DNA of 64,000 nucleotides, taken from Dehalococcoidia bacterium. Its GTDB lineage: Bacteria; Chloroflexota; Dehalococcoidia; UBA6926. Below the pieces are notes generated by a model that was not told the DNA's origin, did not search any database, and saw only the letters and a program-made list of their open reading frames with translations. The translations under genes were made by a program, and so were the position numbers. Below are positions 21,001 to 47,515 of the stretch, piece by piece; within the stretch, counting starts at the first letter, position 1; each line of letters starts with the position of its first letter. The stretch spans positions 1,468,079-1,532,078 of the forward strand of contig OZ243973.1 of assembly GCA_965214725.1 (NCBI GenBank), written 5' to 3'.

Positions 21001-22150
21001 AGGACACCCTCGACGAGCCTAACGAGTCGCTCACTGTCCACGCGACGGCAACGGACCTCAACATCTCTGACGCAAGCGTCACCATCACGGATGACGACGC
21101 GTCGCCGACTGTCACCATTGCGAACGCATCAGTCGCGGAAGGTGACAAGGCGGAGTTCACGGTCGCACTGTCGGCGGCTTCTGGCCGGGACGTGACGGTT
21201 GAGTGGACAACGGGCGACGATGGCGCTGAGGGCGCGACTCAGGCGACGGCTGATACCGATTACACGGCCCAAACCACCGCCACAACTCTGACCATCGCCG
21301 CTGGTGACACCACCGGCACCATTGAGGTACAGACAACCGAGGACACCCTTGTCGAGGGTAGTGAGACCTTCACGGTGACAATCGCCTCGCCCACCAACGC
21401 CACGCTCGGCGCGACGACGGCAACCGGCACCATCACGGATGATGACAGCGCAGCAACGACGGCATCGCTGTCCGTCAGCCCGACGTCGGTGGCCGAAGGC
21501 GCGAGCGCGACTACAGTCACGGTGACCGCCACGCTCGCCGGCTCCACAACGTTCAATACCGACACGACGGTCAGGGTAACGGTGGGCAAGGACGGCGACG
21601 CGGCCGTCTCAGACACGGATTACACAGGAGTCTCCGCCTTCGACATCACCATAGCCGCAGGCCAGTTGAACGGACAGAATACCTTCTCGCTCACGCCGCT
21701 CAATGACACCCTCGATGAGGACGATGAGTCGCTCACTGTCCATGCGACGGCGACGGGCCTCACCATATCTGACGCGACAGTGAGCATCACGGATGACGAT
21801 CCCACGCCGACGGCGTCCGTTGCCGACGCCACATCCGTGATCGAGGGAGATAGCGCCCAGGACGTCACAGATATGACCTTCATGGTGACCCTGAGCGCTG
21901 TGAGCAGCAAGAGCATCACCATCTCCTATGTACTTGGCGGGACGGCAACGGCGGGCAGCGACTACACAGCTCCGGATCCGCTCTCCGTCACCATTCCTGC
22001 CGGAGAGCAACAGCAAAGCATCATCATTCCAGTCCTCGGTGACACAATCGTTGAAGGAGACGAAACGGTTACCGTGACGCTGAATACCCCCACCACGCGG
22101 GTGCGGACTCGGCAGACCCCGGCATCCACGCAGGCATCCGGGACGATTGA
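1..22150 (+). repeat. Coding tandem repeat array. Units alternate between two Calx-beta subtypes with a period of about 705-710 nt per pair. There are sporadic insertions of two other subtypes. Some multi-hundred-nucleotide blocks are near-identical.
   Basis: The motif SLSVSP(S/T)...TITDDD recurs in frame at about 2300, 3010, 3720, 4430, 5870, 6570, 7270, 7990, 8690, then about every 705 nt from 10870 to 21460. The block around 3230-3815 is near-identical to 6790-7375. The blocks around 5100-5500 and 9370-9770 are near-identical to each other. Confidence 0.85.
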
Positions 22151-24776
22151 GGACGACGACAGGCGGCAACCGCAGGGTAGTATATCGTCGTCACTGGTGC
22201 TGAGCCCTGCCACCATCTCCGAGGGCGGTGGAGACAGAGGCGCAAGTTACATCACGGCACGATTGGACAAGGCTGTAAGCACTGACGTCACATTCACCGT
22301 CTTTACCACTCCGTTGACCGACACAACCACCGCGGACTACAGAGTCAGCACAAATCAGGTTCTGACCATCGAGGCAGGAGACCTTGAGAGCAAGGACTTC
22401 GTCACCATCAGCGCCGTCGACAACAGTCAGGTTGACGGGGACAAGACAGTGCAGGTCTCGGCGACCGTGACAGGGAGCACGGAGGTCCGGGTCCCCGATC
22501 CTGAAGATCTGAGCATCGTCGATGATGACTTGACGGGAACGCCGGACGCGACTGTCGCTTTCGAGCATTTGACCTACAGTCTCGACGAGGACGGCAAGTT
22601 GAATATCTCGGTTGACTTGAGCGTTGCGCTTCAATCAGCGGCAGAGGTGCACTACCTCCTGCACGCGTCCAACTCCGTTGTCGGCAGGGATGGCGACATC
22701 ATCACCCGGTCTGACGGCCCAGATGGATGGGTCAGCACCGGAGAGCTCATCTTTGCGGCCGGAGACACCCAGCGGATAATCAGCGTCCTCCCAGTCGACA
22801 ACAATGTCGTGGAACCGGACGAAGAGATCTCCATATCGCTTCTCGTCGTGAGTGGGCAGGTGGAGGCAGGCTCTCCAACCACGGTGACGCTCACAGATGA
22901 TGATCGGAGCGTTCTCTACGTAGAGCCGTCGTTCGATGAAGTGGAAGAAGGTGAGCAAAGCGGGTTCCGCCTGCGCATGAACAAGCCCCATCAAGAGGAC
23001 GTGACCGTTGACCTCATCGTGAGTGGAACCGCTGAGGAGGGTGACGATTTCGACGCCCTACCTGCGACACTGACCTTCCCGGCAGGCGAGAGAACTATCG
23101 GTGTCACGGTCACGACCTTTGAGGACGGGATTGCAGAAGGCATGGAGACCCTCATCGTCGATCTCAGCAACGTCGTTGGCCACCACGTTGCCATCGACCA
23201 ATCATCCGGTCAGTTCAACCTCCGGATGAGCGATACGCGCGACGTCAGCCCACCCACTAACGTGAGGCTCAGCGTTAGCCCCTCACGCGTGGTGGAGGAC
23301 GCCGGCGCGACAACGCTCACAGTGACGGCCGACTTTGTGGGTAATGGAACCTTCACGACGAATACGTCTGTGGTCGTTACCGTCGGCGCGACGGGCGACA
23401 CGGCAGTTGCAGGCACCGATTACGCAAATGTTGGCACGGTTACCGTTCCCATCACGGCGCAGCAGAGCAGCGGTCAGGCGACGTTCACACTAACGCTGAC
23501 GGATGATGCTGACGTGGAGGGACTGGAAACGATTACCCTGCATGGCACAGCAAGCGGCCTCACCGTCTCGGATACGACGTTGACCATCGTGGACGATGAC
23601 TCACCCACACCACCGCCGCCACCAACGGTGACACCAACGCCGACGCCAACGGTGACACCAACGCCCACGCCGACGCCGACACCAACGGCAACTCCGACAC
23701 CGACGCCCACCGCTGTGTCACTCAGCGTTAGCCCGGCGCGCGTGCCGGAGGACGCTGGCGCCACGACAATCACGGTCACGGCAGACTTCGTCGGCTCAGG
23801 AACCTTCAACACGGATACGTCTGTAACCGTGACAATCGGGCAGGGGAGTGATGCGGCGGTCTCAGGGACCGACTACACGTCTGACGGCACGGTCACCGTG
23901 ACATTCTCGGCGGGGCAGAGCAGCGGCCAGGCCTCGTTCACGCTCACGCCAACGGACGATGTCGAAGTGGAAGGATCGGAGTCGCTCACGCTGCACGGCT
24001 CGGCAAGCGGCCTAACCGTTTCTGACACGACGGTGACCATCACCGATGACGATAAACGGATTGTCGTTGCCAGCTTGGCGCTCGCGAGCTTTGGACGTTC
24101 CTCATACAAGCTGAATGAAGACGATTCACCGGTTGAGATTACCGTGGAGCTGAGCAGCGAGCAGACCGCAGATGTGGAGATCACATACTCGATGTCTTCA
24201 GCGACGGCGGACATTGGACGCAAGGGTGATGCGTGGTCGATAGGTGGTGAAGATGGGGATTGGCGCGATGATCAGCGTCTCATCTTTGCTCCGGGTGAGA
24301 CAGAGAAGATCATCAAGGTTTACCCGGTGGACAACAATGTGGTTGAGCCGGACGAGATGGTGACCATCTCGCTGAGCGTGGCCGATGGAAATGCAACCGC
24401 AGGGCGGTCCACAGAGCTCACCCTCCTCGACGACGATCTCACAACAGTCATGCTGGAGCCTGTCGCGTCGCAGGCCAACGAGGGCGAGAGAACGGAAATC
24501 GAGCTGATGCTTAGCAAGCCACACCAGGATGAGGTCACGATGGACTGCTCCGTGCGCGGCACAGCCACATCCGGCGACGACTACGCGTACCTACCCCACA
24601 CTGTGGTGATCCCCGCCGGCAGCACCTCCGTTACCATCCCCGTGGATCTGCTGAGCGACGAGATTGCGGAAGGACCCGAGACCCTCGTCTTCATCATTTC
24701 TAACCCGGACGGCCGCGGGGTCGACATCTCCAGCGACCACTCTGAGCACACGATCACGATTGTTGATGGGGAGTGA
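1..24776 (+). CDS. Giant Calx-beta repeat protein. It is 5'-partial: the reading frame is open from window position 3, so the true start lies upstream of the window. At least 8,258 aa are encoded here. It ends in a TGA at 24774-24776.
   Basis: Frame 3 is open from nt 3 and reads [19 protein letters not shown]... before the first Met at 141. The protein consists of about 70 tandem domains of roughly 110 aa. Each carries the Calx-beta hallmarks: ...[32 protein letters not shown]...DYTA...[32 protein letters not shown]...TGTITDDD. Two subtypes alternate. A Pro-Thr linker and divergent Calx-beta-like modules follow near the C-terminus. Confidence 0.9.
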
Positions 24777-33291: not shown

Positions 33292-33597
33292 CCCGTGATC
33301 GTGCCGGGCTGCCGTCCACGCCCGGGATCACGCGGTACATCGCCGAGCGCGATCGTGTTTGAGGTGACGATCTCGTGCAATGACCGTGCGAATCCAGATT
33401 TGCTCAGCTTGGTATAATAAATTGAACAATGTTTTGAACCATGTTCGAAACAGGGAGCGCGGAAGACAGACATGCTCGTCGGCAAGACGACAGTCCGGAT
33501 TGGAGACCACATAGGGGACAAGCCCACCTAGGAGATAATTGGCATGCACCAAGAGCATACCGCCCACTCCAACTCTTGGAGACTCGGCACGAGAAGC

Positions 33598-36500
33598 ATG
33601 AATGGTTTCAGCTGGAGACTCTCCGTGGTCACGCTGGCCGTCTTGGCCCTGGTGATCACGGCGTCAGCCGGGCTGTGGCTGGTTAACCCGCCACAGGACG
33701 CTGCCGCGCAAACCGCGCTGCCGGAACTCAAGATCGCCGCCGCCACTGCCACCGTGGCCGAGGGCGGCGAGCTGAGATTCACCATCTCCGCCAGCGATCC
33801 GACGCTGGACCGCGACCTCACCGTGAACCTGCAGGTCACCGAGGACACCAGTCAGGGCCGAACCTACCTCGCCGCCTCGGAGCGCGGCTCCAAACGGGCC
33901 GTCCTCTACGCCGGCATGGAGACCGGAACCTTCACGGTCAAAACCGTCGACGACAATAACGACGAGCACGACGGCGCTGTTACCGTGACGCTGCGCCCCG
34001 GGAACGGCTACACCGTGGGCGCCACCAACGCCGCCACCGGCACGGTGACCGACAAAGACGGCACCCATGTGACTCTGACTATTGGCAAAAGCATTATTCC
34101 GGAGAACGGCGGCAAGACCGACATCACGTACCGACTCCGGGGGCCGCTGAAAGCGGGTCAAACCATCGCGTTCAAGGCTGGGACCGGACGTGATTCTAAT
34201 GGAAGACAAGGCGTCGACTGGACCCTCCAGAAGAAGCCGGGCGCCGACAACACTGGCGTGACGCTATCCGCCAGCGGGACTGTCAACGGGGTTACCGCCA
34301 CCGCGCGGAACCCGATTGTGACCATGACCGGCGCCGGCGTACGGGAAGCCAAGCTCGAGCTGACCGCCGTTGACGATACTGCGACCAGCAATCGGCGAAT
34401 CACTTGGTTTGTTGGCAGTAACGGTGGCATCAGCAACATCTTTGTGCAGACCCTCGGTGGCGCCCAGGGTAGCTTCAGGGTCAGCGGGCGCAATCACATC
34501 TATCTCATAGACGACGATAACCCTCCCGCACCCGTAATCGGCTTTTCGAGAAATGCTTTCAGCGGCAACGAGAATGGGGGCCTTGTTCAGCCGGTTGTCA
34601 ACTTTTCCAGAGTCGCCACGCCGGAATTCGAGCTGCCGCTGACCTTCACTGCCGGCACTGCAACGGAAGGCGCGGACTACCATGAGCCTGGTCCGCAAAT
34701 TGTAGATCTGTCAAGCAGTTCTAGTACTGGATTGAGTTTTGACATCCACCTAATCGATGACAAGCATAAGGAGGGCGCCGAAACCCTCACGGTCGCCATC
34801 GACATGGACGCCCTGCCGGACCTCAATGGCAATAGCGAAGGCAATGGCTGGGTTGCCGGGGATCACACGACCGCAACCATCACCATCAATGATAACGACA
34901 GCGATGTTCACGCCTCGATCAGCGCCCTCGATAACATCGCAACCGAGGGCAGCTCCAGCGACAAGGCCACCTTCCGAGTCAGCCTCGACTCCGTGCGGGG
35001 CGCGGCGGGACCGTTGACCGACGGCGACAGCGCCAGGATCAACTTTGCCTTCCTCGGCGGCGCTCATGGTAAGGACTTCGATGTCAATCTGTTGACCAAC
35101 CACCCCACGCTGTCATCCGACGGCGCTTCCGTGAAATTCAACCCCAACGCCGTCAGTCCGGCGCAGGACACGCCACTATTCGCCGACTTCGAGTTGATCG
35201 CCCGGCAGGACCTGGACGCCATCGACGATCTGGTGAGGGTGCAGCTGGCCGTAATCGTGGCCGGCGCCGGCACTCCCACGGGCTCGGCGAGCGGCGAAGC
35301 CCGCATCACCCTGCGGGACGATGACCAGAAAGCGACGGGTCTGCGCATGCGCGGAGAGCTGGATGGTCCCATTGCTGACGACGACGGCGCTTTCAGGATC
35401 GGCGAGGGCAGCGGCGAAACCTTGGTGTTCGGCCTTACGCAGGCGCCAACTGCTGCCGTGAACGCGGATGCGTCCATCATCTCCGGCAGCCACGCTGCCT
35501 CCATCACGTCCGGCGCCACCAACCAGGTGGTGGTGGGCAATAGCTTCTGCTACTCGCGCTGTCCCTGGCGAGTGTGGTTCGACTACAACTACGGCGATCC
35601 GCAGAACAGTACATTGAACGGGTATCGGATTGACATCGCCGGCACGGAGGACATCGCCACCGTGCTCACCGACGACGTGACGCTGCGGATCGCCCTCCGC
35701 TCGGCCGACAAGAACTACGACGGCGCCGTGTATGAATACCCCATCAAGGTGATTGACAACGATCAGCCCATCAGCGTGGAGCTCGTGAGCACCAGCGCGG
35801 TCGACCTGCCGGAAAGCCGCAACGGCCGCATCAGGCTGGGGGTGCGGGCATCGCGTCCGGTTCACACCGGGTTGACGCCGCAGCTGACCTGGCCCGACCC
35901 GTCGGACACCGGCCACTTCACCCCGGCCCAGGACATCGACATCGCCGTGGAACCGATACCGGTGGGCGGCGACATGGCTTACATCTACCTCGACTCCAAC
36001 GACGACAACGTCGCTGAGGCGGAAGCGTCAGCAACGGCTACCATGTCCCTGGAGGAAACGGTTGCAGGCGTAACCGTGGACCAGACGCGCAACACCTTCC
36101 TGCTCCGGCACAGCGATGATGACAATCTGAACATCCGGCTGATCAAACGCTACGCCTCGGACAACACAGTCAGCTACGCGGTGTACTTCACCCGTCCGGT
36201 GGACTATGCCATTGAGCTGGTCCTGAAGGGCAAGAACAGCAACAATGACCGCATCCTGGGCATGCCCAGCACGGTGACTCAGAATAACCCCAACCTCACC
36301 AGCCCGCACGAGTACACCATCTTCGATCCGGATCGGTACACTGCCATCATCGCGCGCACCCTAGGGGACTACACGTTCTTCGACAGCCAGGCCATCGTGG
36401 TGTCCGACGGTATTCAGCTGATCGACCACGATGACCCGGTTCCGACGACAGGTCCCCCACTGATGGCGCAAAGCAGCGAGGTGTCGCCACAGGGCACGGT

Positions 36501-37479
36501 GCGTGATTCCCTGACATCAGGCATGGGCAACGGCGGCGGCAGCCTCAATGACCGGGTAAACGCGATCAGCGTGTCCAACCTAACGGCAGACGGGTTCACC
36601 CTGGGATGGTCAGCAGCCAACGGCGCTGACAGCTACCGGGTGCGCTACTGGCAGGACGAAGACGCGGTGAGCGTCTTCCCCGTCACGGGTACGACCCACA
36701 CGGTAACCGGCCTGGATCCGGAGACGGAGTACTCGGTGCAGATCATGGCGGTGGTCAACGGCAACGTGGTCACGAGCAAGTCGAGTTCAGTGTTCACCGT
36801 AACCACTGCCGCTGCTGCTGCACCGGCGCCGACGGCCACGCCCACGCCAATACCCACAGCAACACCCACGCCGGCGCCAATACCTACGGCAACACCGACA
36901 CCGGCGCCGCTCACATCGGCGCCTCCTACGGCAACACCGGCGCCGCAAGTCTGCAATCTGCCCTCGGACGCCATCACGGTGGCCGAGGTAACCGGCTGGC
37001 GGGACGCCCTCGACCCCATCAAGGCGGCCGCGGGCGTCAAACGCTGGAACCGGGTGCTGGCCACGCTGGGCGAGGACACGGGCGCTGCGCCGATGCCGGC
37101 GGAGCTGGCCCGGCAGGTCGCCAACTGGCTCGGCAACACCCGCTGGGATCGCACAGCCCGCACCCTAGAGGCTATGGCGCAGTGCGACAACCCTTTGCCC
37201 ACACCCGCGGCAGCGCCGACGCCGACGCCGCAGGCCTGCACTCTGCCGGCTGACGCCATCACGGTGGCCGAGGTAACCGGCTGGCGGGACGCCCTCGACC
37301 CCATCAAGGCGGCCCCGGGCATCAAACGCTGGAACCGGGTGCTGGCCACGCTGGGTGAGGACACTGGCCTTACGCCGATGCCGGCGGAGCTGGCCTGGGA
37401 GGTCGCCAACTGGCTCGGGAATACCCGCTGGGACCGCACGGCGCGCACGCTGGAGGCTATGGCGCAGTGCGACAACTGA
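33598..37479 (+). CDS. Secreted multidomain protein. From N to C: Calx-beta-like domains, an FN3 domain, a Pro/Thr/Ala linker, and a tandemly duplicated ~80-aa Cys-bounded domain.
   Basis: Signal-peptide-like N-terminus MNGFSWRLSVVTLAVLALVITASAGLW, with the ATG at 33598. The FN3-like segment is VSNLTADGFTLGWSAANGADSYRVRYWQ...TEYSVQIMAV. The linker is ATPTPIPTATPTPAP. The duplicated domain runs from C(N/T)LP to AMAQCDN. Confidence 0.75.
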   Translation: MNGFSWRLSVVTLAVLALVITASAGLWLVNPPQDAAAQTALPELKIAAATATVAEGGELRFTISASDPTLDRDLTVNLQVTEDTSQGRTYLAASERGSKRAVLYAGMETGTFTVKTVDDNNDEHDGAVTVTLRPGNGYTVGATNAATGTVTDKDGTHVTLTIGKSIIPENGGKTDITYRLRGPLKAGQTIAFKAGTGRDSNGRQGVDWTLQKKPGADNTGVTLSASGTVNGVTATARNPIVTMTGAGVREAKLELTAVDDTATSNRRITWFVGSNGGISNIFVQTLGGAQGSFRVSGRNHIYLIDDDNPPAPVIGFSRNAFSGNENGGLVQPVVNFSRVATPEFELPLTFTAGTATEGADYHEPGPQIVDLSSSSSTGLSFDIHLIDDKHKEGAETLTVAIDMDALPDLNGNSEGNGWVAGDHTTATITINDNDSDVHASISALDNIATEGSSSDKATFRVSLDSVRGAAGPLTDGDSARINFAFLGGAHGKDFDVNLLTNHPTLSSDGASVKFNPNAVSPAQDTPLFADFELIARQDLDAIDDLVRVQLAVIVAGAGTPTGSASGEARITLRDDDQKATGLRMRGELDGPIADDDGAFRIGEGSGETLVFGLTQAPTAAVNADASIISGSHAASITSGATNQVVVGNSFCYSRCPWRVWFDYNYGDPQNSTLNGYRIDIAGTEDIATVLTDDVTLRIALRSADKNYDGAVYEYPIKVIDNDQPISVELVSTSAVDLPESRNGRIRLGVRASRPVHTGLTPQLTWPDPSDTGHFTPAQDIDIAVEPIPVGGDMAYIYLDSNDDNVAEAEASATATMSLEETVAGVTVDQTRNTFLLRHSDDDNLNIRLIKRYASDNTVSYAVYFTRPVDYAIELVLKGKNSNNDRILGMPSTVTQNNPNLTSPHEYTIFDPDRYTAIIARTLGDYTFFDSQAIVVSDGIQLIDHDDPVPTTGPPLMAQSSEVSPQGTVRDSLTSGMGNGGGSLNDRVNAISVSNLTADGFTLGWSAANGADSYRVRYWQDEDAVSVFPVTGTTHTVTGLDPETEYSVQIMAVVNGNVVTSKSSSVFTVTTAAAAAPAPTATPTPIPTATPTPAPIPTATPTPAPLTSAPPTATPAPQVCNLPSDAITVAEVTGWRDALDPIKAAAGVKRWNRVLATLGEDTGAAPMPAELARQVANWLGNTRWDRTARTLEAMAQCDNPLPTPAAAPTPTPQACTLPADAITVAEVTGWRDALDPIKAAPGIKRWNRVLATLGEDTGLTPMPAELAWEVANWLGNTRWDRTARTLEAMAQCDN
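36952..37476 (+). repeat. Tandem in-frame duplication of 285 nt (95 aa) encoding the C-terminal Cys-bounded domain. Copies are at 36952-37191 and 37237-37476.
   Basis: Copy 1 reads CNLPSDAITVAEVTGWRDALDPIKAAAGVKRWNRVLATLGEDTGAAPMPAELARQVANWLGNTRWDRTARTLEAMAQCDN. Copy 2 reads CTLPADAITVAEVTGWRDALDPIKAAPGIKRWNRVLATLGEDTGLTPMPAELAWEVANWLGNTRWDRTARTLEAMAQCDN. Confidence 0.85.
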
Positions 37480-38561: not shown

Positions 38562-39719
38562 CTAGAGTGCGTTCTCGGACCCGAGAACCAGCGTGCACAT
38601 GACGCTTGCCATGCCACCGTTACCATTGACGAGTCCCAGGTCATTGCGCTCGATCTGCCTCACACCGGCCTTGCCCATGATCTGGCGGGCTGCCTCAACG
38701 ACGTGACGGAGGCCACCCGCTGAACCGGGCTGTCCGCCGGACAACTGGCCACCGTCCGTGTTGATGGGGAAGGTCCCGTTGTAGGTGGTGTCCGTCTCCG
38801 CAAAGAACGGTCCAATCTCACCCTTCGGCACGATCCCTGCGTCTTCCAGGGAGACTGCATGGATGATTGTGTATGCATCATAGAATTGAGCGAACTGGAT
38901 GTCACTCGGGGCGTAACCGGACATGGCGAGCGCGGTTGGCGCAGAGCGCGCAACCGGCGTGGTGGTGAGCTCCGGTCGCATCATCCCGCTTAAGCCGTCC
39001 ACCGCTGTCGCGCCGCCAAGCATGTAGGCGGGCTTGTTGAGGCTGGCCTTTGCGCGCTCTTTCGTTGTGACAATGACAGCCGCCGCGCCGGCGCACGGCA
39101 TCACACATTCCAGCAAGCGCAGCGGATAATTCACGTAGCGAGAGCTGATAACATCCTCATACGTAATCGGCTGGCCATTGAATACGGCGTTCTCATTGCC
39201 CTGAGCGTTGGCGCGTTCATTCACCGCAATGTGCGCTAACTGCTCTTGCGTTGTGCCGTAGCGATCCATGTGGCGCATGTAGACCTGTGCATAGCCGGAA
39301 TTCGCGCCGGCGGCGGGACCATACGGGAAATCGAACTCGGACGCGGGGCCGTGGGATCCCTCGGGACCATCGGGGATTGCAGGATTACGTGCCTGTCCCA
39401 TGACGACGAGGACGTAGTTTGCGAGGCCGTTCTGGACAGCCATGGAGGCAAGCAAGACAGCGGTCGCGCCGCTGGCGCCCATCATGGAGGTGCCGGTGCC
39501 GAATCGCGGGCGGATTCCAAGGTATTCCGATACGAATCCAGGGAAGATTGCTTCTCCCTCAGTAACCAGCCCGTCTATGTCATCCTTTGAGATGTGCGCA
39601 TCCTCGATGGCGAGACGGGCCGCCTGTGCCAGCAGGCCGCCCGTGCTCAGGCCGCGAACCGTTCGGCGCGACGGGAGCTCGCCGATACCGACAATTGCGG
39701 CTTCTCCTCGGAAACTCAC
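38562..39719 (-). CDS. Thiolase-like protein (SCP-x/nonspecific lipid-transfer-protein-type thiolase).
   Basis: 385 aa. N-terminus MSFRGEAAIVGIGELP. The thiolase fold is conserved to the C-terminus (...GQPGSAGGLRHVVEAARQIMGKAG...). Confidence 0.75.
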   Translation of the reverse strand: MSFRGEAAIVGIGELPSRRTVRGLSTGGLLAQAARLAIEDAHISKDDIDGLVTEGEAIFPGFVSEYLGIRPRFGTGTSMMGASGATAVLLASMAVQNGLANYVLVVMGQARNPAIPDGPEGSHGPASEFDFPYGPAAGANSGYAQVYMRHMDRYGTTQEQLAHIAVNERANAQGNENAVFNGQPITYEDVISSRYVNYPLRLLECVMPCAGAAAVIVTTKERAKASLNKPAYMLGGATAVDGLSGMMRPELTTTPVARSAPTALAMSGYAPSDIQFAQFYDAYTIIHAVSLEDAGIVPKGEIGPFFAETDTTYNGTFPINTDGGQLSGGQPGSAGGLRHVVEAARQIMGKAGVRQIERNDLGLVNGNGGMASVMCTLVLGSENAL

Positions 39720-40320: not shown

Positions 40321-41478
40321 CTAGAGTGCGTTCTCGGAACCGAGAACCAGCGTGCACATTGTGCTCGCGGTGCCGCCTCAACCATTCACCAGGCCGAGGT
40401 CATTGCGGGCGATCTGTCTCACACCCGCCTTGCCCATGATCTGGCGCGCGCCCTCGATAACGTGTCTGAACCCACCGGCGAGGCCGGGCTGTCCGCTGGA
40501 CAGCTGGCCGCCGTCTGTGTTGATGGGAAACTCGCCGTTGTAGCGCGTATCGGTTGATTCAAAGAACGGCCCAACCTCGCCCTTGGGCATCAACCCCGCA
40601 TCCTCCAGGCACACGGCATGGAGAATGGTGTATCAATCATAGAACTGGGCAAACTGCATGTCCCGCGGCGTGTAGCCGGACATGGTGAACGCCGTGGGCG
40701 CAGACCGCGCGACTGGCGTCTCGGTCAGCTTGTCACGTTGCCAGCCGGTCAAAGGATCGGTCGCGATGCCCGCGCCAAGGACGTACACCGGGCGATTCAG
40801 GCTATGCTTGGCGCGCTCTGCGGTTGTGACAATAACGGCGGCGGCGCCGGCACACGGCATCACCGTTTCAAGCAGCTTGATGGGGTAATTGATAAAACGG
40901 GAATTCATCACATCGTCATGTGTGATGGGCTGCCCCTGGAAGACGGAGTTGGGGTTCTCCAGTGTGTTGAATCGCTCGTTGACGGCTATTTGGGCCATCT
41001 GCTCTTCAGTCGTGCCGTATTCCTCCATGTGTCGGACGTACATCATGCCGTAGCCGGTATTCGCGCCGGCTGCCATACCATACGGTTCCTCAAACTCTGA
41101 CCTCGCGCTGGGAGGCCCGCCACCCTCCGGCGGAATGACCGGGTTGCGCGCCGTGGCAATGACGACGAGCACGTAGTTGGCGAGTCCGTTCTGGACGGCC
41201 ATGGAGGCGAGCGTGACGCCCGTCGCGCCACTGGCGCCCATCATGCTGGCGCCGGTCGCGAATCGTGGGCTGATTCCGAGGTACTCGGACGCAAAGGCCG
41301 GGGACACAGTCCCGCCCTCCGTAACAAGTCCGTCTATATCCGTGAAGCGCAAATGGGCGTCATGGATAGCGATGCGGGCCACGTCACCCATGAGGCCAAC
41401 CATTGAGCGGCCAAACGTGGAGCGGGTCGTCGGCAACTCCCCGATTCCGATGATCGCTGCTTCACCACGAAGACTCAT
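40321..41478 (-). pseudogene. Thiolase-like paralog with two in-frame TGA codons (40633-40635 and 40378-40380). There is no frameshift and the frame ends at a TAG at 40321-40323. It is a probable pseudogene, or a sequence error.
   Basis: The translation runs MSLRGEAAIIGIGELP...QFAQFYD*YTILHAVCLEDAGLMPKGE...LGLVNG*GGTASTMCTLVLGSENAL. It aligns with the intact paralog end to end (...FYDAYTIIHAV... / ...LVNGNGGMASVMCTLVLGSENAL). Confidence 0.6.
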
Positions 41479-42248: not shown

Positions 42249-45227
42249 CTATGACCGTTGCTCTTCCTTCACTATATCCGCTGCAGCCAAGAGGACGATA
42301 TCGTTGGGGTGCCGGAACTTGGTGCACTGGTCCGCTAGCTCGGTCTCGGCCGCCACCTGGAGTAGTTGGACGGTTTCCCTACGCTCTGCAGGGTCTCCAG
42401 CCCCCATCGACGGTTGCAGTCCCCGTGCCTCGTTGCCAAGCAACGACCCGAAGAAAGTGGGGCGTGCTTCTGCTTGATCTGACCCGTCCTTGATGAATAC
42501 TGGCAAGACATCGTCTCGGTTAGGTACACCTTGATCGTTTTGCCACCGCAATCGATAAAGGCCAAGCGCGCCGTTATCAGGGCCGCGAATAGATGCGTAT
42601 TCTCCACCGAAGTCCGGGGATTGCGCACACTCAATGATGTCCGTGAAGAAACGGCTCTTGAAATCCATCAGGTGAATGCTGCCGCTGCCCTGAGCTATCT
42701 GTCTATCTGCAGTAATGCGGACGACGGTTGCACCGGCAGGGAAGTCGGAGTACTGCCCGCGCAGGAGGTCCGGTAGCCTAATGACCAGAACCCGACCGTC
42801 GTATTGACTTTCCCTAATCTCGATGCCACGGAAGTATGGGAGCATAATCTCGAGGAAGAGGTGAACATCTTCCTGCGTAAACCTGTGGCTCGCGACAAGA
42901 GAATTTGGATCGTAGCCCTCAATGCTCGAAAATAATATGTCCTGCTGATTCTTTGCCTCGTGGGCTCGCTTTAAGGCTTCCTCAGCGTCCTGTTGAGTAC
43001 GGTCCACAGACATTTCTGAGGCATCAGCCAATATCTTTGCAATGTCAAGCCGTTCCAGTATTTCGCCCAAAATTTCGGTCTTGAGAGCACTCGGGTCGCC
43101 ATATTCACCACTGACCTCTGCCAGATCTTGGGCAATCGAGTCTACTCTCTCTAGCGTTCGCGCAAGAATCTGGTTGTCGAAGCCTTGTGTACTCATCATG
43201 TTGAACACAACAACGCGCTCTGTCTGCCCGTAACGATATAGGCGGCCCGCCCTCTGGATGAGTCGGGCCGGATTCCAAGGAATGTCATAGTTCACCATGA
43301 CGTGGCACTCTCGGTGCAAGTTGATGCCCTCTCCTCCTGCCTCTGTGGAAATGAGGAAGGGACCAGATTCATTGAATTTCGCGATGTTCGCCTTCTTCTC
43401 GTTGAGAGACATGCCTCCGTGAATCTGGAGTATCTCGCGCCCTGGATACGCAATCTTCAGCTGGTCGGCAATGTATTCCTGCGTAGCCCTGTACTCCGTG
43501 AAGACAAGGAGCTTGTCACTGGCTTCCCTGACGGGTTTCACAACCTTCTCCAAGAACAACTGCATCTTAGGGTCCTTCACATTGGCATCTTCCGCCAAAG
43601 CGATTAGGCGCTCCAATTCTTGGGCTTCCCCCTGAAAGAATGGCTGCCCTGCCTTAACCTCGACTCCCACAACATCCGCGAGTGCTTCCAGGTTATCGTT
43701 TCCATCACTCCCATCGATGAAAGCATCTATATTTCCTGTCATGACATCACCCGCATCATCATCAGCTACATCATCATTGATATCGGATTGTTCACCAGTC
43801 TGCAGACGAGCAAGACGTTTCAGCAGGGCCGTCTCGACTGCGGTGATACTAGACGAGGCAAGTTTTCTGTACGTGGTCATAACGAAGCCAACTGCCCGCA
43901 ATCCACCCCCTTCTTCCGCAACCTTATAACCTTTTCTGAGATATTCCTTAAGCTGCTTGTCAAATGTGTCCAATTTGTCCGTGCTGGGGACATCCACCGC
44001 GTGGCTATCTTGGCCACGGAATATGGGCTCTCCGTTCATGTCCGTTGCGGCGCTCTTTCTGTTGCGCAGAACCATCTCTGCGACGACGGAGGGATTCGTA
44101 AAGATCTGTCCCAGTTCTCGGGCGCGGTCTGGGCGCAAAAGCGTCAACATGTTGACAAACTGCGCGTTATCGCCTTGATGCGGAGTTCCTGTAAGAAAAA
44201 TAAAGGAATCTGTGAATTTTCTCACGTGCTGGGCCAGTCGATACCTCTGGGTTGTTTCCCTCCCCGGAACCTTGCTCAGATGATGCGCCTCATCAAAGAT
44301 GATGATGTCCCACTCCCCAGCATCGGCCAATTTCGCGAGGTTCTCATCTGATTTCCCCCGGTCAATCGACACGATAACCTTGTCCTGCCCAAACCAGTGT
44401 GACGGCTGATTTATATTGAAGTCGACTCCGAAAATCCTGAAGTCTTCGTTGAACTTGTAGCTCATCTCATCCTGCCATTGACGGACAACTGCAGCAGGGC
44501 AAACGACCAAGACACGCCTCGCCTGACGTCTGCGACGCAGTGCCGCCAGAAGGAGTCCCACCTCAATTGTCTTCCCCAAGCCAACATCGTCGGCGATGAG
44601 CCAATTCGTCTGGTCGGAAGTCAGAATCCTGTGAACCAGATCGATCTGGTGTGGCAGAGGGTCAACGTCGAGCCGATCAAGGGCTCCTGTAACTTGATTC
44701 CAGGAATCTAACGCGTAAGCGAAAGCTTTTAGCCGAAACCGTTCATGGCTATCGTCCTCGAGTTCGGCACGCACATATCTTGTCTCGGGGCCACGGAGCC
44801 TAACCAGATTCTCAAAGGGTATCCAAGCACTTTCCCCGGTCTTGTGCCATTGTACGAGTACCATATCACGTGCCGCGATGTGCCGTTCCGCTTGAACAAT
44901 TCCAGTGCCCACCGTCCTCCTGATGTTCGACAATGGGCTATCCTGCACAAGATCACCAGGCCTAAAGCCGTTGCGCAACTCCGAAGATTTGTGCCGCGAA
45001 TCAGGAATTGCCAGCCCCCACCTCACTTGAACTTCTTCCCTATTCTCGTCTGTGGCGACGACCTGGCCGCGATGTATCGGCCCTCCAGCTATTCGTTCCG
45101 CATTCAAAGTCACCCAGCAATTCACAGCTGGTATCAATCGATGTGGCGATTCATTTCTGTTCATGCCATCTCTCATACTCATGAAAGTCATCATCTCCAT
45201 ACCATTCAGTAAGCGCTTTCCATTCAT
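42249..45227 (-). CDS. SNF2-family ATPase with a RapA/HepA-like architecture: two N-terminal Tudor-like subdomains followed by the Snf2 ATPase and helicase-C domains. Start is uncertain; Met codons occur at 45227 through 45164.
   Basis: Walker A ADDVGLGKT. DEAH box IIFDEAHHL. Helicase-C motifs around LVFTEYRATQ...IHGGMS...FLISTEAGGEGINL...YDIPWNPARLIQRAGRLYRYGQ. The N-terminal segments VNCWVTLNAERIAGG...VQVRW and FRPGDLV...VLVQW resemble the paired RapA N-terminal domains (GQRWIS..., FNPGDTI...). Confidence 0.7.
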   Translation of the reverse strand: MNGKRLLNGMEMMTFMSMRDGMNRNESPHRLIPAVNCWVTLNAERIAGGPIHRGQVVATDENREEVQVRWGLAIPDSRHKSSELRNGFRPGDLVQDSPLSNIRRTVGTGIVQAERHIAARDMVLVQWHKTGESAWIPFENLVRLRGPETRYVRAELEDDSHERFRLKAFAYALDSWNQVTGALDRLDVDPLPHQIDLVHRILTSDQTNWLIADDVGLGKTIEVGLLLAALRRRRQARRVLVVCPAAVVRQWQDEMSYKFNEDFRIFGVDFNINQPSHWFGQDKVIVSIDRGKSDENLAKLADAGEWDIIIFDEAHHLSKVPGRETTQRYRLAQHVRKFTDSFIFLTGTPHQGDNAQFVNMLTLLRPDRARELGQIFTNPSVVAEMVLRNRKSAATDMNGEPIFRGQDSHAVDVPSTDKLDTFDKQLKEYLRKGYKVAEEGGGLRAVGFVMTTYRKLASSSITAVETALLKRLARLQTGEQSDINDDVADDDAGDVMTGNIDAFIDGSDGNDNLEALADVVGVEVKAGQPFFQGEAQELERLIALAEDANVKDPKMQLFLEKVVKPVREASDKLLVFTEYRATQEYIADQLKIAYPGREILQIHGGMSLNEKKANIAKFNESGPFLISTEAGGEGINLHRECHVMVNYDIPWNPARLIQRAGRLYRYGQTERVVVFNMMSTQGFDNQILARTLERVDSIAQDLAEVSGEYGDPSALKTEILGEILERLDIAKILADASEMSVDRTQQDAEEALKRAHEAKNQQDILFSSIEGYDPNSLVASHRFTQEDVHLFLEIMLPYFRGIEIRESQYDGRVLVIRLPDLLRGQYSDFPAGATVVRITADRQIAQGSGSIHLMDFKSRFFTDIIECAQSPDFGGEYASIRGPDNGALGLYRLRWQNDQGVPNRDDVLPVFIKDGSDQAEARPTFFGSLLGNEARGLQPSMGAGDPAERRETVQLLQVAAETELADQCTKFRHPNDIVLLAAADIVKEEQRS

Positions 45228-46116
45228 CTTGGGTTACCCAGTTGCGCACGTGCCGCATTGCTGTTGTATTCCAGGGTTCTACCCCTTGCCATTCAGCCAT
45301 GTACAAAGCGAATTGGGCTAGTGAAAAGATCCCTCTCTCCATCAAATCTTGTGGCAACTTGTACCGCCAATCCTCAATCCAGCTTTCCTCAATGACATCT
45401 TCTGGAGCACAGTCAATTCGCAGTTTTGCGAGTTCCAAAGCCATCTCCCTGGACATTGTATGCCGCTGATGCCGCTCAATCCACCTGCCTTTGCCCCTGG
45501 GTATCCGCACTGCCCAGAGTTCCCAATTCGCGTCCCAATACGCTTGGAACCGCAAGAATGCCAGCAGTACACGCCCATCCCAGTTCTGGCTCCTTAGCCA
45601 AGGGAACCAACTGCCGAATCGAGCGGGCACTAGCCATCTGGTCCAGACGGCCACCTCTTCCCTTTCCTCCGCCGAAATATCCCGAAGACTATCCTGAAGA
45701 CTGGCAAGCCATTCATCCACCTGAAGCGTCCGCTTGATAGAAACGTCGTTTTCGGGTAAAACGAATATGGGGCGAGTTAGAGTGCCCTCATAATCGGCTC
45801 CGTCGAGATCCGGATACTCAACCCACTCTTCAAAGGGCGCCTCGATGGGCTCTTCAGCATCGAGCAATTTGTTCTCGACAAATGCAACGTAGGCATCCGG
45901 TTCAGAGGGCCCCAATTCTTCAGGCGCGCCTTCGGCCGTGATTGCTTCAGCGTCCGGTTCAGCAATATCATCTGGCAGTTCGACGGGCAGTGAATCAAGC
46001 TTGGGCTGACTAGTTTGCTCGTTCCCAAGCTTGACTTCAATCTGCTGACTGGAAGCAAAGACAAAGTCCTCATCAATCCATCCGTCAGAGTCACCAAAGG
46101 GTTGCTGCTGGATCAT
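45151..46116 (-). CDS. Hypothetical acidic, Trp-rich protein. Its 3' end overlaps the start of the RapA-like gene.
   Basis: 321 aa. D/E-rich N-terminal half. C-terminal half rich in W/R (WLVPARFGSWFPWLRSQNWDGR...WIEDWRYKLPQD...EWQGVEPWN). An AGAGGG RBS lies 9 nt upstream of the ATG at 46116. No family was recognised. Confidence 0.5.
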   Translation of the reverse strand: MIQQQPFGDSDGWIDEDFVFASSQQIEVKLGNEQTSQPKLDSLPVELPDDIAEPDAEAITAEGAPEELGPSEPDAYVAFVENKLLDAEEPIEAPFEEWVEYPDLDGADYEGTLTRPIFVLPENDVSIKRTLQVDEWLASLQDSLRDISAEEREEVAVWTRWLVPARFGSWFPWLRSQNWDGRVLLAFLRFQAYWDANWELWAVRIPRGKGRWIERHQRHTMSREMALELAKLRIDCAPEDVIEESWIEDWRYKLPQDLMERGIFSLAQFALYMAEWQGVEPWNTTAMRHVRNWVTQDEWKALTEWYGDDDFHEYERWHEQK

Positions 46117-46144
46117 TCGGGGTGCCCTCTAGCTGTGCGTTAGG

Positions 46145-46150
46145 ATTATG
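46145..46150 (-). promoter_or_regulatory. Candidate -10 element (CATAAT on the minus strand) within a short AT-rich patch upstream of the 321-aa gene.
   Basis: An AT-rich island (gcacatatattctgagatttacac) in otherwise GC-rich DNA. CATAAT lies about 30 nt upstream of the ATG. Confidence 0.2.
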
Positions 46151-46171
46151 CTAGCACATATATTCTGAGAT

Positions 46172-46573
46172 TTACACCCGCCCTGCGCCCTCTGCTGCGC
46201 ACTCCTCGTCTTGTTCTCCTGTGCCGCCGCCTACGCCTACGGCGCCGATGACCTCGCCGTCTTTCTCGATGGGCACTGCGCCTAGGTCCAGGATCATGTG
46301 GTCGCCCTCGCCCGCCTTGATGCCCTGGAAGATTGGCCTGTCCGCCATCGCCTGAAAGACACCGCTCGGGCGCTTGAACGCCGCGGATGCGATGGCCTTG
46401 CCGTGCGAGCCGTACACGCCCGCCCAGATCGCGTCATCCATCCTCGCGAACGCGACGAGCCGGCCGCCCGCGTCAACGACGGCGATGCTCATCTTCGTTC
46501 CCTGCTCATTCGCTTTCTCGATGGCGCCCTCGATGACCCTGTTCGCCTCCTCCAACGTGATTGCGCGTGCCAT
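46172..46573 (-). CDS. GlcG/DUF336-family (putative heme-binding) protein.
   Basis: 133 aa: MARAITLEEANRVIEGAIEKANEQGTKMSIAVVDAGGRLVAFARMDDA...GVGGGTGEQDE. GGAGG lies upstream of the ATG at 46573. The longer ORF-track version (to 47488) runs antisense through surE and is rejected. Confidence 0.6.
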   Translation of the reverse strand: MARAITLEEANRVIEGAIEKANEQGTKMSIAVVDAGGRLVAFARMDDAIWAGVYGSHGKAIASAAFKRPSGVFQAMADRPIFQGIKAGEGDHMILDLGAVPIEKDGEVIGAVGVGGGTGEQDEECAAEGAGRV

Positions 46574-46726
46574 TGTTCTTCCTCCTTGTCTGCCTTGCCT
46601 GCCGATGCTGCGTTTATGGTAGCGTACTGCGCAGCCCCGATAGATGCCCGCATGCGTGTGATCTGCGGATGAGGCGAGAGGGGGCAATCTGTTCGCGAGA
46701 GTGACCGAATAGGGTAGACTTGCGGC

Positions 46727-47515
46727 GTGCGAATCCTGTTGACGAACGATGATGGCATCCACGCGCCCGGCATTCTCGCGTTGGCGAGAGCGATGCGCGG
46801 GCTCGGCGAGGTCACCATCGTCGCGCCGGACCGCGAGCAGAGCGGCATGGGCGCGAGTTTCACGATGCATCGGCCGGTGCGGGTACGCCGCCTGCGGACG
46901 CGCGGCACGCGCCAGTATGCCATCGATGGGACGCCGGGAGATGCAGTCATCGTCGCGCTTGGCCACATCATGACGGATGAGAAGCCGGACCTGGTTATCT
47001 CCGGCATCAATCACGGGACAAACCTGGGCGCGGACGTGTTTCTGTCCGGGACGGTGGGCGCCGCGCTCCATGCGCATATCCGCGGCATCCCCGCCATGGC
47101 CATCTCCATGCCGCTGCGCAAACGCACGCGGTACCGGACAGGGGCGACGGTGGCGCGCGCGCTGGCGGAACGCATCCTGAGTGAACAGGAGCGATACGCA
47201 GGCCTCCTCTTTAACGTGACGGTGCCAAACCTGGGGCTGGACGCGCTGCGCGGAGTCGAAATCACCAACCTCGTTCCGCGCGCCGTCAATTTTGAGGTGA
47301 CGCACGGGAATGATGGGCGGCGGGACTACTACTGGATCGGTATCGAACGGACAACGCGGCCGCGCGGCGGAATCGACATTCAGGAGGGGACGGACGTGTG
47401 GGCGCTGCGCGAGAAAAAGGTTTCCATTACGCCGGTGCAGATGGACGCGACGGCATATGGCGCAATAGAGAGGCTGGACGGGCTGCAAGCAGCGGTGTCA
47501 AAGCTGACGGAGTGA
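46727..47515 (+). CDS. surE: 5'/3'-nucleotidase SurE.
   Basis: MRILLTNDDGIHAPGILALA...SGINHGTNLG. This is the SurE signature. Confidence 0.85.
   Translation: MRILLTNDDGIHAPGILALARAMRGLGEVTIVAPDREQSGMGASFTMHRPVRVRRLRTRGTRQYAIDGTPGDAVIVALGHIMTDEKPDLVISGINHGTNLGADVFLSGTVGAALHAHIRGIPAMAISMPLRKRTRYRTGATVARALAERILSEQERYAGLLFNVTVPNLGLDALRGVEITNLVPRAVNFEVTHGNDGRRDYYWIGIERTTRPRGGIDIQEGTDVWALREKKVSITPVQMDATAYGAIERLDGLQAAVSKLTE

What the first reader, a model, noticed from the sequence alone, without database searches (positions are those of the whole stretch)
42249..46116. Unknown acidic/Trp-rich protein translationally coupled to a RapA-like SNF2 ATPase
The 321-aa ORF (45151..46116) overlaps the start region of the 992-aa SNF2 gene by at least 14 nt, whichever Met is used. 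The helicase carries a RapA/HepA-like N-terminus (two Tudor-like subdomains) in addition to Walker A/DEAH and helicase-C motifs. RapA is normally a stand-alone RNAP-recycling factor. A dedicated, co-translated partner rich in W/D/E (WFPWLRSQNWDGR, WIEDWRYKLPQD, EWQGVEPWN) is not part of the described RapA system. The pair could be an uncharacterised two-component module, for example a regulator or anti-factor of a RapA-like remodeler, or a helicase-based defence pair. A small AT-rich patch with CATAAT lies immediately upstream of the 321-aa gene.
Basis: inference. Interest (0 to 1): 0.55.

Follow-up and report, generated by a model that had tools for sequence, protein, structure and literature searches.

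The report
Conserved Snf2 motor with unknown partner
A RapA/BrxHII-style Snf2 motor gene is always preceded by a gene for an acidic, tryptophan-rich protein of unrecognised fold, and this two-gene unit has moved between at least six bacterial phyla, so it is probably an undescribed two-subunit DNA-remodelling (possibly anti-invader) machine.

Summary
The 321-aa ORF (45151..46116, -) is a real gene. Its TGA overlaps by 14 nt the family-consensus ATG (45164) of a 971-aa Swi2/Snf2 ATPase (42249..45164, -).

The pairing is not a local accident. In all 86 related loci fetched, a homologue of the small protein sits directly upstream on the same strand, usually overlapping or less than 45 nt away. 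These loci come from Chloroflexota, Alpha- and Gammaproteobacteria, Acidobacteriota, Latescibacterota, Gemmatimonadota and Desulfobacterota. No third gene is conserved. The two proteins co-diverge (r = 0.73).

The motor has two N-terminal beta-barrel subdomains, an intact Snf2 core and C-terminal alpha+beta domains. RapA is the best solved match, but the core scores higher with DrmD and BrxH models, and no curated cut-off is reached.

The pair is poorer in GC than its flanks in 68 of 71 loci, and in several loci it sits beside known defence genes.

Best reading: a mobile two-subunit Snf2 module whose partner regulates or targets the motor. Its function has not been tested.

The parts
45151..46116 (-). 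Gene for the acidic, Trp-rich partner protein (321 aa, stop TGA)
   Evidence: ORF and translation. 111 cluster representatives with E<=1e-3. A homologue lies upstream of the Snf2 gene in 86/86 loci. No Pfam, NCBIfam, PADLOC or PHROGs hit.
45742..46116 (-). Partner residues 1-125: acidic, mostly disordered arm with short conserved aromatic-acidic motifs (FGDSDGW-DEDF; DPW in relatives; DEPEP-AEYD)
   Evidence: 33 acidic against 4 basic residues. pLDDT is below 50 for residues 1-10 and 30-68 and mostly 42-72 up to about residue 120. Motifs are visible in alignment A3. W13 and the D of DPW are conserved in at least 70% of sequences.
45262..45741 (-). Partner residues 126-285: conserved Trp-rich helical core with one beta-hairpin
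45154..45261 (-). Partner residues 286-321: variable tail carrying the (Q)DWY-x-(E)WHD-type motif of the Chloroflexi branch; its last codons overlap the Snf2 start
   Evidence: Alignment A3. The tail is absent in the closest relatives P0002 and P0003.
45151..45164 (-). 14-nt stop/start overlap ATGAACAGAAATGA, preceded by a purine-rich GAGAGA stretch
   Evidence: Sequence. The family N-terminus maps to this ATG. Overlaps of -1, -4, -8, -11 or -14 nt, or short spacers, occur in most relatives.
42249..45164 (-). Gene for the Swi2/Snf2 ATPase (971 aa from ATG 45164; stop TAG)
   Evidence: Pfam SNF2-rel_dom, ResIII and Helicase_C. More than 4000 database relatives, the best 120 at 54-68% identity over about 96% of the length.
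44796..45116 (-). Snf2 residues 17-123: two small all-beta (Tudor/SH3-like) subdomains
   Evidence: AF2 strands 17-65 and 72-123 at pLDDT of about 84-92. Full-length Foldseek alignment to RapA spans 1122 columns against about 1000 for N-terminally truncated RapA. Weak profile match of residues 79-113 to RapA 11-41, E 0.004.
42915..44738 (-). Snf2 residues about 143-750: ATPase core with intact motifs (DDVGLGKT, DEAH, TGTP, QRAGRLYRYGQ) and a low-confidence insertion at about 458-505
   Evidence: hhalign to E. coli RapA 128-602, E 7e-29. PADLOC BrxHI|BrxHII 311 bits, DrmD 293, HmaA 253. NCBIfam DrmD 326, RapA 171.
42267..42827 (-). Snf2 residues 780-966: two C-terminal alpha+beta domains. The last is a five-stranded antiparallel sheet with helices inserted between strands 4 and 5.
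   Evidence: AF2 secondary structure at pLDDT of about 80-94. It fits the description of the RapA/BrxHII C-terminal domains in PMC12839542. No sequence similarity to the RapA C-terminus. No conserved D...(D/E)xK motif is visible in the family consensus (inference).
46117..46171 (-). 55-nt spacer upstream of the partner gene, with CATAAT (46145-46150) and a GAGGG Shine-Dalgarno-like site
   Evidence: Sequence. The consensus scan scored no full promoter.

Best explanation
The two genes form one self-contained, horizontally mobile operon that encodes a two-subunit Snf2 machine.

The downstream protein is an active dsDNA-translocating Swi2/Snf2 ATPase. It is built like RapA and BrxHII: two N-terminal Tudor-like barrels, the motor, and two C-terminal alpha+beta domains. 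It carries no nuclease.

The upstream protein is a non-catalytic subunit made in step with the motor through stop/start overlap. Its Trp-rich helical core probably docks on the motor. Its long acidic arm, studded with aromatic motifs, probably acts as a nucleic-acid mimic or tether that keeps the motor off DNA, or directs it to a target, until a signal arrives. This would be analogous to the way RapA's own N-terminal domain auto-inhibits it until RNA polymerase binds.

The most likely biological role is in conflict with invading DNA, by displacing protein-DNA complexes rather than cutting DNA.

Shown: the gene pair, its conservation, co-divergence, compositional foreignness and domain architecture. 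Inferred: physical complex, regulation by the acidic arm, and the defence role.
For: - Pairing: 85/86 loci by iterated HMM, and the 86th by profile comparison, probability 94.7%, E 6e-8. As a negative control, the same HMM found 0 hits in 8553 ORFs around 80 viral Snf2 genes.
- Only these two genes are conserved across the loci.
- Junctions are overlapping or shorter than about 45 nt in most loci.
- Co-divergence: r = 0.73, Mantel p = 0.001. The partner evolves about twice as fast (mean identity 23% against 51%).
- The partner has no conserved catalytic-type residues, an acidic disordered arm and a confident core with no known fold.
- The motor has intact motifs. RapA is the best full-length structural match, E 1e-31 against 1e-17 for the next. 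The architecture matches the published RapA/BrxHII scheme.
- Mobility: GC is lower than the flanks in 68/71 loci, median -8 points. In the window, GC3 is 0.54-0.58 against 0.71-0.81 in neighbouring genes. The Chloroflexi-type clade also occurs in closed chromosomes labelled as gammaproteobacterial sponge symbionts, at 70-78% identity. Genomic contexts vary.
- Defence neighbours: DrmD at 1003 bits (L052), type I REase (L057), HKD+Snf2 (L067), PglZ (L085), and methylase/HNH/UvrD/GmrSD (L077).
- The ATPase core scores higher with DrmD and BrxH models than with RapA.
Against: - No effector domain (nuclease, toxin) is recognisable in either protein.
- Most neighbours in the 28 non-Chloroflexi loci scanned are metabolic or housekeeping genes. 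In the window and its closest relatives the pair sits in a conserved housekeeping synteny, HbpS-like / pair / glyoxalase / thiolases. That pattern looks more like stable inheritance than a shuffling defence island.
- No copy was found on plasmids or phages.
- A physical complex and the role of the acidic arm were not tested, because no multimer prediction was available.
- Taxon labels of MAGs may be wrong for some cross-phylum cases.
Confidence: 0.45

Rival explanations
1. Housekeeping RapA analogue. The motor recycles or dislodges the host's own RNA polymerase, or resolves transcription-replication conflicts, as RapA does. The Trp-rich acidic protein is its lineage-specific accessory or adaptor subunit.
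For: - Two N-terminal Tudor-like barrels as in RapA, whereas BrxHII has one.
- RapA is the best solved structural and sequence match.
- No nuclease or other effector is present.
- The pair sits in conserved housekeeping synteny in the window's closest relatives.
- The motor is slowly evolving, at 54-68% identity across many Dehalococcoidia.
- Neighbours are mostly metabolic.
Against: - It is not a RapA orthologue: 171 bits against a cut-off of 576, and the core is closer to DrmD/BrxH.
- The N- and C-terminal domains show no significant sequence similarity to RapA.
- The pair is markedly GC-poor and uses atypical codons relative to its host in 68/71 genomes.
- The distribution is patchy across phyla, with close cross-phylum relatives.
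- Defence genes lie alongside in several loci.
Confidence: 0.27
2. Toxin-antitoxin-like or abortive module. The upstream acidic, partly disordered protein is a labile antitoxin that neutralises a motor toxic to the cell (for example by stripping RNA polymerase or replisomes). Loss of the partner on infection or stress unleashes the motor.
For: - The gene order and overlap are typical of type II TA pairs: a small acidic gene first, with translational coupling.
- The partner has a disordered acidic arm and evolves fast.
- The pair has a mobile, GC-poor signature.
Against: - The partner gene is split or interrupted in several genomes that keep an intact motor gene (L005, L014, L015, L023, L031). 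That would be lethal if the motor were a toxin, unless these are assembly errors or decaying copies.
- No Snf2 toxin is known (from my own knowledge).
Confidence: 0.12
3. Remnant of a larger known system. The motor is an orphaned BrxHII, DrmD or HmaA helicase left after decay of a BREX, DISARM or Hma locus, and the upstream ORF is incidental.
For: The best PADLOC hits are BrxHI|BrxHII, DrmD and HmaA. PglZ or DrmD genes lie nearby in L085 and L052.
Against: - None of the partner genes of those systems is conserved around 80 loci.
- The curated cut-off for DrmD is not reached (326 against 610).
- The upstream gene is conserved in 86/86 loci and co-diverges with the motor.
Confidence: 0.04
4. Artefact. 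The 321-aa ORF is a spurious reading frame in a GC-rich genome, and the overlap is chance.
For: Many long spurious ORFs exist in this window.
Against: - Homologues occur in 111 clusters and at the same position in 86 loci.
- The core has a confident AF2 model.
Confidence: 0.01

Closest known systems
RapA (HepA), the RNA-polymerase-associated Swi2/Snf2 ATPase of E. coli
   Same: It is the best solved match by sequence (E 3e-32) and by fold over the full length (E 1e-31). The ATPase cores are homologous (residues 143-647 to RapA 128-602). Both have two small beta-barrel subdomains at the N-terminus and alpha+beta domains at the C-terminus.
   Different: It is not an orthologue (NCBIfam 171 bits against a cut-off of 576). 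The terminal domains have no significant sequence similarity to RapA. RapA has no dedicated partner gene; in E. coli K-12 it is followed by rluA. This motor always has the Trp-rich partner. The pair is compositionally foreign in its hosts.
BrxHII, the Swi2/Snf2 helicase of type 3 BREX and of the BREX-related (BR) systems (Rakesh and Krishnan, NAR 2026, PMC12839542)
   Same: The domain scheme is the same: Tudor, Snf2, alpha+beta (inactive REase-like), C-terminal alpha+beta. The top PADLOC model is BrxHI|BrxHII at 311 bits.
   Different: BrxHII has a single Tudor domain; here there are two barrels. BrxHII works with BrxC, PglXI methyltransferase and PglZ. None of these is conserved here. The Trp-rich partner is not described in that paper's sections on helicases.
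DrmD, the Snf2 helicase of DISARM
   Same: It is the highest NCBIfam score (326 bits over residues 185-757). PADLOC DrmD scores 293 bits.
   Different: The score is below the cut-off of 610. The match covers the motor only. No DrmA, DrmB, DrmC or methylase is present. In L052 a true DrmD (1003 bits) lies next to the pair as a separate gene.
Type II toxin-antitoxin pairs and acidic DNA-mimic regulators (an analogy of layout only)
   Same: A small acidic gene comes first, overlaps the larger gene, and encodes a partly disordered protein.
   Different: There is no homology to any known antitoxin or DNA mimic. The second gene is a 971-aa motor, not a small toxin.

Membership tests
RapA (NCBIfam NF003426 / PRK04914) | Whole-protein score at or above the curated cut-off (576 bits) | tested here: not met
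   170.8 bits, in two stretches covering the motor only.
RapA (NCBIfam NF003426 / PRK04914) | Tandem Tudor-like N-terminal domain | tested here: inconclusive
   The AF2 model gives two five-stranded beta subdomains (residues 17-65 and 72-123) at high pLDDT. The Foldseek alignment to full-length RapA is about 120 columns longer than to N-truncated RapA. The profile match is only weak, E 0.004. No domain-level superposition could be run.
RapA (NCBIfam NF003426 / PRK04914) | Swi2/Snf2 ATPase core with intact motifs | tested here: met
   Pfam SNF2-rel_dom and Helicase_C. hhalign to RapA 128-602, E 7e-29. Motifs are invariant in 64 sequences.
RapA (NCBIfam NF003426 / PRK04914) | Binds RNA polymerase and is activated by it | not testable with these tools
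   Needs biochemistry or multimer prediction with the host RNAP.
BrxHII (type 3 BREX / BR helicase) | Encoded with BrxC/DUF499 ATPase, PglXI-type methyltransferase and (for BREX) PglZ | tested here: not met
   The window flanks are glyoxalase, thiolases, HbpS-like, H+-PPase and GatB. No such gene is conserved in 80 loci. PglZ is seen only in L085.
BrxHII (type 3 BREX / BR helicase) | Architecture: single Tudor, Snf2, inactive REase, C-terminal alpha+beta domain | tested here: inconclusive
   The motor and C-terminal secondary structure fit, but the N-terminus has two barrels rather than one. PADLOC gives 311 and 242 bits, with no curated cut-off.
DrmD (DISARM; NCBIfam NF038317) | Score at or above the cut-off of 610 bits | tested here: not met
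   325.9 bits.
DrmD (DISARM; NCBIfam NF038317) | DISARM neighbours DrmA, DrmB, DrmC/E and DrmMI/II | tested here: not met
   Absent from the window and not conserved in related loci.
HmaA (Hma: helicase, methylase, ATPase) | Adjacent methylase and ATPase genes | tested here: not met
   The PADLOC HmaA hit is 253 bits, but no methylase or ATPase is adjacent.
Any described family for the 321-aa partner | Significant match to a curated profile or a solved structure | tested here: not met

The most novel reading that the evidence does not exclude
The pair is a new kind of nuclease-free immune or conflict machine. A novel-fold, Trp-rich acidic protein gates a RapA-like tandem-Tudor Snf2 motor. When released, the motor strips RNA polymerase or other invader protein-DNA complexes from DNA. 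The cassette is being exchanged among phyla that share the sponge-symbiont niche.
Probability: 0.15. Interest if true: 0.8.

Novelty: new variant of a known kind. Interest (0 to 1): 0.6.

Why it matters
Bacterial Snf2 motors are known in two settings. RapA is a solitary RNA-polymerase recycling factor. DrmD, BrxHII and ZorD are parts of large multi-gene defence systems.

This is a third arrangement: a minimal two-gene unit in which a RapA/BrxHII-style motor is strictly coupled to a protein family that no database describes and whose confidently modelled core has no known fold. It occurs in up to about 300 species-level genomes from at least six phyla, including cultivable strains (Rhodopseudomonas pseudopalustris DSM 123, Marinicauda salina, Benzoatithermus flavus), so it can be tested directly.

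If the partner gates the motor, it would give a simple model for how Snf2 remodelers are switched on. If the pair is defensive, it would add a nuclease-free mechanism and a new protein family to defence catalogues.

Tried and rejected
- A word-indexed homology search with the partner found only 4 proteins, and 7 with a 36-sequence profile. This reflects the index; the exhaustive HMM search found 111 clusters.
- The first genome scan with partner patterns found nothing. The scan with Snf2 patterns worked.
The scan with the Snf2 alignment gave only distant motor-only relatives (31% identity or less) without the partner.
- tblastn of partners against plasmids and phages gave no match.
- Longer family members (P0143, P0147, P0233 and others) were checked for informative domain fusions; none reached a Pfam cut-off.
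- The promoter scan found no sigma-70-type site upstream of the partner.
- Flanking repeats were examined as signs of insertion. The only candidate is a 16-nt direct repeat at the 5' ends of the partner and glyoxalase genes. It encodes QQQPF in both and is not repeated in relatives, so it is probably chance.
- The window's own record could not be looked up.
- Literature searches found no description of this pair. The nearest is the BREX/BR survey.


Full report
**1. What is in the window**

On the minus strand there are two long ORFs: 45151..46116 (321 aa, ATG, stop TGA) and 42249..45227 (992 aa).

The long ORF has seven in-frame ATGs between 45227 and 45164. The last gives ATGAACAGAAATGA, a 14-nt overlap with the upstream stop. 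Alignments of 15 and 64 relatives begin at exactly that Met (consensus M-8x-L-x-P-x3-C-x-V). The real gene is therefore 42249..45164 (971 aa), and the 21 upstream codons are not conserved.

The 55-nt spacer upstream of the small gene holds CATAAT (46145-46150) and a GAGGG site. No complete sigma-70-type promoter was scored.

The flanks are ordinary genes. On one side are a glyoxalase-fold protein and thiolase/DUF35-type pairs. On the other are an HbpS-like protein, H+-pyrophosphatase and GatB. The pair is compositionally distinct: GC 0.53 against 0.61-0.62 in the flanks, and GC3 0.54-0.58 against 0.71-0.81 in six neighbouring genes.

**2. The small protein is real and belongs to an undescribed family**

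It has no hit in Pfam, NCBIfam, PADLOC (E<=1) or PHROGs. Sequence profiles find nothing in the PDB.

An exhaustive HMM search of 1.8 billion cluster representatives found 111 with E<=1e-3 and 86 with E<=1e-10. The word-indexed search saw only 4-7, which reflects its index.

The protein has pI 4.3 and 20 Trp (6.2%). Residues 1-125 carry 33 acidic and 4 basic residues.

Across 71 family members the columns conserved in at least 70% of sequences are W13, the D of a DPW motif, L174, L184, W194, W201, R233, I242, D243, W246, W250, S265 and F266. This pattern suggests a packing or binding surface, not an active site (inference).

The family layout is: short aromatic-acidic motifs (W-x2-ED-F, DPW, DEPEP-AEYD) set in a variable acidic linker, then the Trp-rich core, then a variable tail. 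In the Chloroflexi branch the tail carries a QDWYD-x2-EWHDNLGW motif.

**3. The large protein**

Pfam finds SNF2-rel_dom, ResIII and Helicase_C. Motifs I, II, III and VI are invariant in 64 relatives.

By profile score the motor resembles the defence-type Snf2 proteins most closely:
- PADLOC: BrxHI|BrxHII 311 bits, DrmD 293, HmaA 253.
- NCBIfam: DrmD 326 bits (cut-off 610), DpdE 186, RapA 171 (cut-off 576).

No curated cut-off is reached, and all matches cover only residues about 127-757.

Among solved structures, RapA is the best match by sequence (E 3e-32). It is also the best by fold over the whole length (Foldseek E 1e-31, 1122 alignment columns; the next family scores 1e-17).

The AF2 model (64 sequences, mean pLDDT 72) shows two five-stranded all-beta subdomains at residues 17-65 and 72-123 (pLDDT about 84-92). 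These are followed by the two RecA-like lobes with a low-confidence insertion. At residues 780-966 there are two alpha+beta domains, the last a five-stranded antiparallel sheet with helices inserted between strands 4 and 5.

That is the scheme a recent survey describes for RapA (tandem Tudor) and for BrxHII and the BR helicases (single Tudor): Tudor, Snf2, inactive REase-like domain, unique C-terminal alpha+beta domain (PMC12839542).

At sequence level only the motor is demonstrably homologous to RapA (E 7e-29). The N-terminus gives a weak hit (E 0.004) and the C-terminus gives none. 'RapA-like' is therefore justified for the architecture, not for orthology.

**4. The pairing is conserved**

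The three closest partner homologues lie in the same synteny (HbpS-like, partner, Snf2, glyoxalase, thiolases), directly upstream of a Snf2 gene. More distant Snf2 relatives in other genomic contexts also have an unannotated gene directly upstream, and its sequence shares the motifs.

A scan of one genome per species (GTDB r232) with two Snf2 peptide patterns found 314 loci that encode a relative, of which the best 80 were kept. An HMM iterated on the ORFs of the 86 loci then in hand found the partner directly upstream on the same strand in 85. The 86th (L085) has a divergent 405-aa upstream ORF that matches the family profile at 94.7% probability, E 6e-8.

As a control, the same HMMs found nothing among 8553 ORFs around 80 distant viral Snf2 genes.

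All-against-all clustering of the ORFs shows that only these two genes are conserved. The remaining clusters are shadow frames of the Snf2 gene or neighbours shared by at most about 13 loci.

The distance from partner stop to motor start is an overlap of 1-14 nt or a spacer under about 45 nt in most loci. Pairwise identities of partner and motor correlate (r = 0.73, Mantel p = 0.001; r = 0.68 within the Chloroflexi-type clade). The partner diverges about twice as fast.

**5. Distribution and mobility**

Hosts, by record title, are mostly Dehalococcoidia. Others are Caldilineaceae, Alphaproteobacteria, Gammaproteobacteria, Thermoanaerobaculia and other Acidobacteriota, Latescibacterota, Gemmatimonadota, Desulfobacterota, and records labelled Binatia and Entotheonella.
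- The Alphaproteobacteria include the cultured Rhodopseudomonas pseudopalustris DSM 123, Marinicauda salina and Benzoatithermus flavus.
- The Gammaproteobacteria include closed chromosomes of Ca. Azophilus and Ca. Poriferihabitaceae.

Many of these are lineages I recognise from memory as typical sponge symbionts. This was not verified here.

Motors from the gammaproteobacterial, Binatia- and Entotheonella-labelled records are 70-78% identical to Dehalococcoidia ones. Alphaproteobacterial motors are only 41-46% identical to the window's. A Gemmatimonadota-labelled motor is 88% identical to Latescibacteria ones. If the labels are right, this pattern implies transfer between phyla.

In 68 of 71 loci the pair is poorer in GC than its flanks (median -8 points, up to -19; for example 0.51 against 0.67 in R. 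pseudopalustris).

No copy was found in the plasmid or phage collections. NCBI names the motor only 'DEAD/DEAH box helicase'.

**6. Neighbours**

In 28 non-Chloroflexi loci the 132 neighbouring ORFs scanned are mainly metabolic: short-chain dehydrogenases, FAD oxidoreductases, glycoside hydrolases, acyl-CoA dehydrogenases and ABC transporters.

Known defence genes are adjacent in several loci:
- a full DrmD (1003 bits) in L052;
- a type I restriction subunit (807 bits) in L057, an HKD+Snf2 protein in L067 and PglZ (1057 bits) in L085;
- a DNA methylase, an HNH/DUF4357 protein, a UvrD-like helicase and GmrSD in L077;
- WYL, PLD and mad3 hits elsewhere.

This is suggestive but not a formal enrichment test.

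**7. Interpretation**

Firmly shown: a strictly conserved, co-diverging, tightly coupled two-gene unit. It consists of an intact RapA/BrxHII-architecture Snf2 motor and a non-enzymatic-looking protein of unknown fold, and it is compositionally foreign in nearly every host.

From this I infer a two-subunit machine in which the partner regulates or targets the motor. By analogy with RapA, whose N-terminal domain auto-inhibits the ATPase until RNA polymerase binds (abstract of PMC8501970, listed), I propose the following. The acidic arm with its aromatic motifs occupies the DNA-binding cleft or the Tudor barrels, and the Trp-rich core anchors the partner on the motor.

The biological role is open.
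- For a conflict or defence role: foreign composition, spread across phyla, a fast-evolving partner, a motor closest to DrmD/BrxH, and some defence-island neighbours.
- For a housekeeping RapA-like role: the tandem barrels, the lack of any effector, stable synteny among the window's nearest relatives, and mostly metabolic neighbours.
- A toxin-antitoxin-like reading fits the layout. It is weakened by genomes in which the partner gene is split or interrupted while the motor is intact (L005, L014, L015, L023, L031).
- 'Remnant of BREX/DISARM' and 'spurious ORF' are contradicted by the conservation data.

**8. Novelty**

I found no description of the partner family or of this pair in the curated libraries or the searchable literature. 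The closest published frame is the RapA/BrxHII architectural comparison. I rate the pair as a new variant of a known kind: an Snf2-based module with a new obligatory partner.

**9. Limits**

- Loci were retrieved through two exact peptide patterns, so '86 of 86' applies to this Snf2 subfamily only.
- The iterated HMM was built and tested on the same small set, although position, strand and the negative control argue for specificity.
- MAG taxon labels are unverified.
- No multimer prediction, domain-level structural superposition or genome-wide defence score could be run.

Noticed in passing
window 40330..41478 (-); also L002:4544-5700, L002:6301-7140, L003:7773-8930, L003:9559-10720, L004:9511-10670, L004:11265-12420: A thiolase-like gene has two in-frame TGA codons: codon 282 (FAQFYD*YTILHAV, at 40633-40635) and codon 367 (GLVNG*GGTAS). 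The conserved protein sequence runs on to a TAG stop at codon 386. The codon-282 TGA recurs in all six thiolase paralogues of three relatives, and the codon-367 TGA in five of them; the sixth (L002:6301) loses the frame after about codon 355. The window's second paralogue (38562..39719) has Ala and Asn at those positions. TGA is the commonest ordinary stop here (14 of 25 genes), so this is site-specific recoding: a selenocysteine or read-through candidate. From memory, the first site aligns with the Cys of the HDCF motif of SCP2-type thiolases. A hairpin follows the first UGA, but its z-scores are not significant.
   Followed up: partly
window 141..24776 (+): A giant 8211-aa ORF with a strong AT skew. 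The two sampled thirds contain at least 17 Calx-beta repeats plus Ig-like and LapA-like matches, so it is a giant adhesin-type surface protein. A second Calx-beta/fn3 protein lies at 33544..37479.
   Followed up: partly
window 42162-42177 and 46096-46111: A 16-nt direct repeat (15/16 identical) lies at the 5' ends of the glyoxalase gene and the partner gene, 3934 nt apart, so it brackets the GC-poor pair. It encodes QQQPF in both proteins. Relatives have similar MT-Q-rich N-termini but no exact repeat, so it is probably chance.
   Followed up: partly
L005:4827-5965; L014:2457-4940; L015:1904-3064; L023:443-1413; L031:2607-4977: In several genomes the partner gene is split into two ORFs (L005, L015, L023) or interrupted by about 0.7-1.2 kb (L014, L031), while the Snf2 gene looks intact. 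The cause could be frameshifts, insertions or decay.
   Followed up: no
L052:388-3843 (-); L057:100-2241; L067:365-3739; L077:17-3008 and 7646-12203; L085:109-3078 (-): Known defence genes lie directly beside the pair in some non-Chloroflexi genomes: a full-length DrmD, a type I restriction subunit, an HKD+Snf2 protein, methylase + HNH/DUF4357 + UvrD-like helicase + GmrSD, and PglZ.
   Followed up: partly
window 46172..47488 (-): This ORF is listed as 438 aa, but only its last roughly 130 residues match the HbpS-like domain, and relatives call a 133-135-aa gene. The real gene is probably about 46172..46580 and the rest is an open frame of the GC-rich sequence.
   Followed up: no
loci L007-L086 (record titles): The hosts of the pair read like a list of sponge-symbiont lineages: Dehalococcoidia, Ca. 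Poriferihabitaceae, Ca. Azophilus, Entotheonella, Latescibacterota, Thermoanaerobaculia, Gemmatimonadota, Binatia, and bins named SB06xx, RHO and IRC. This suggests exchange within one habitat. Habitat metadata were not available here.
   Followed up: no
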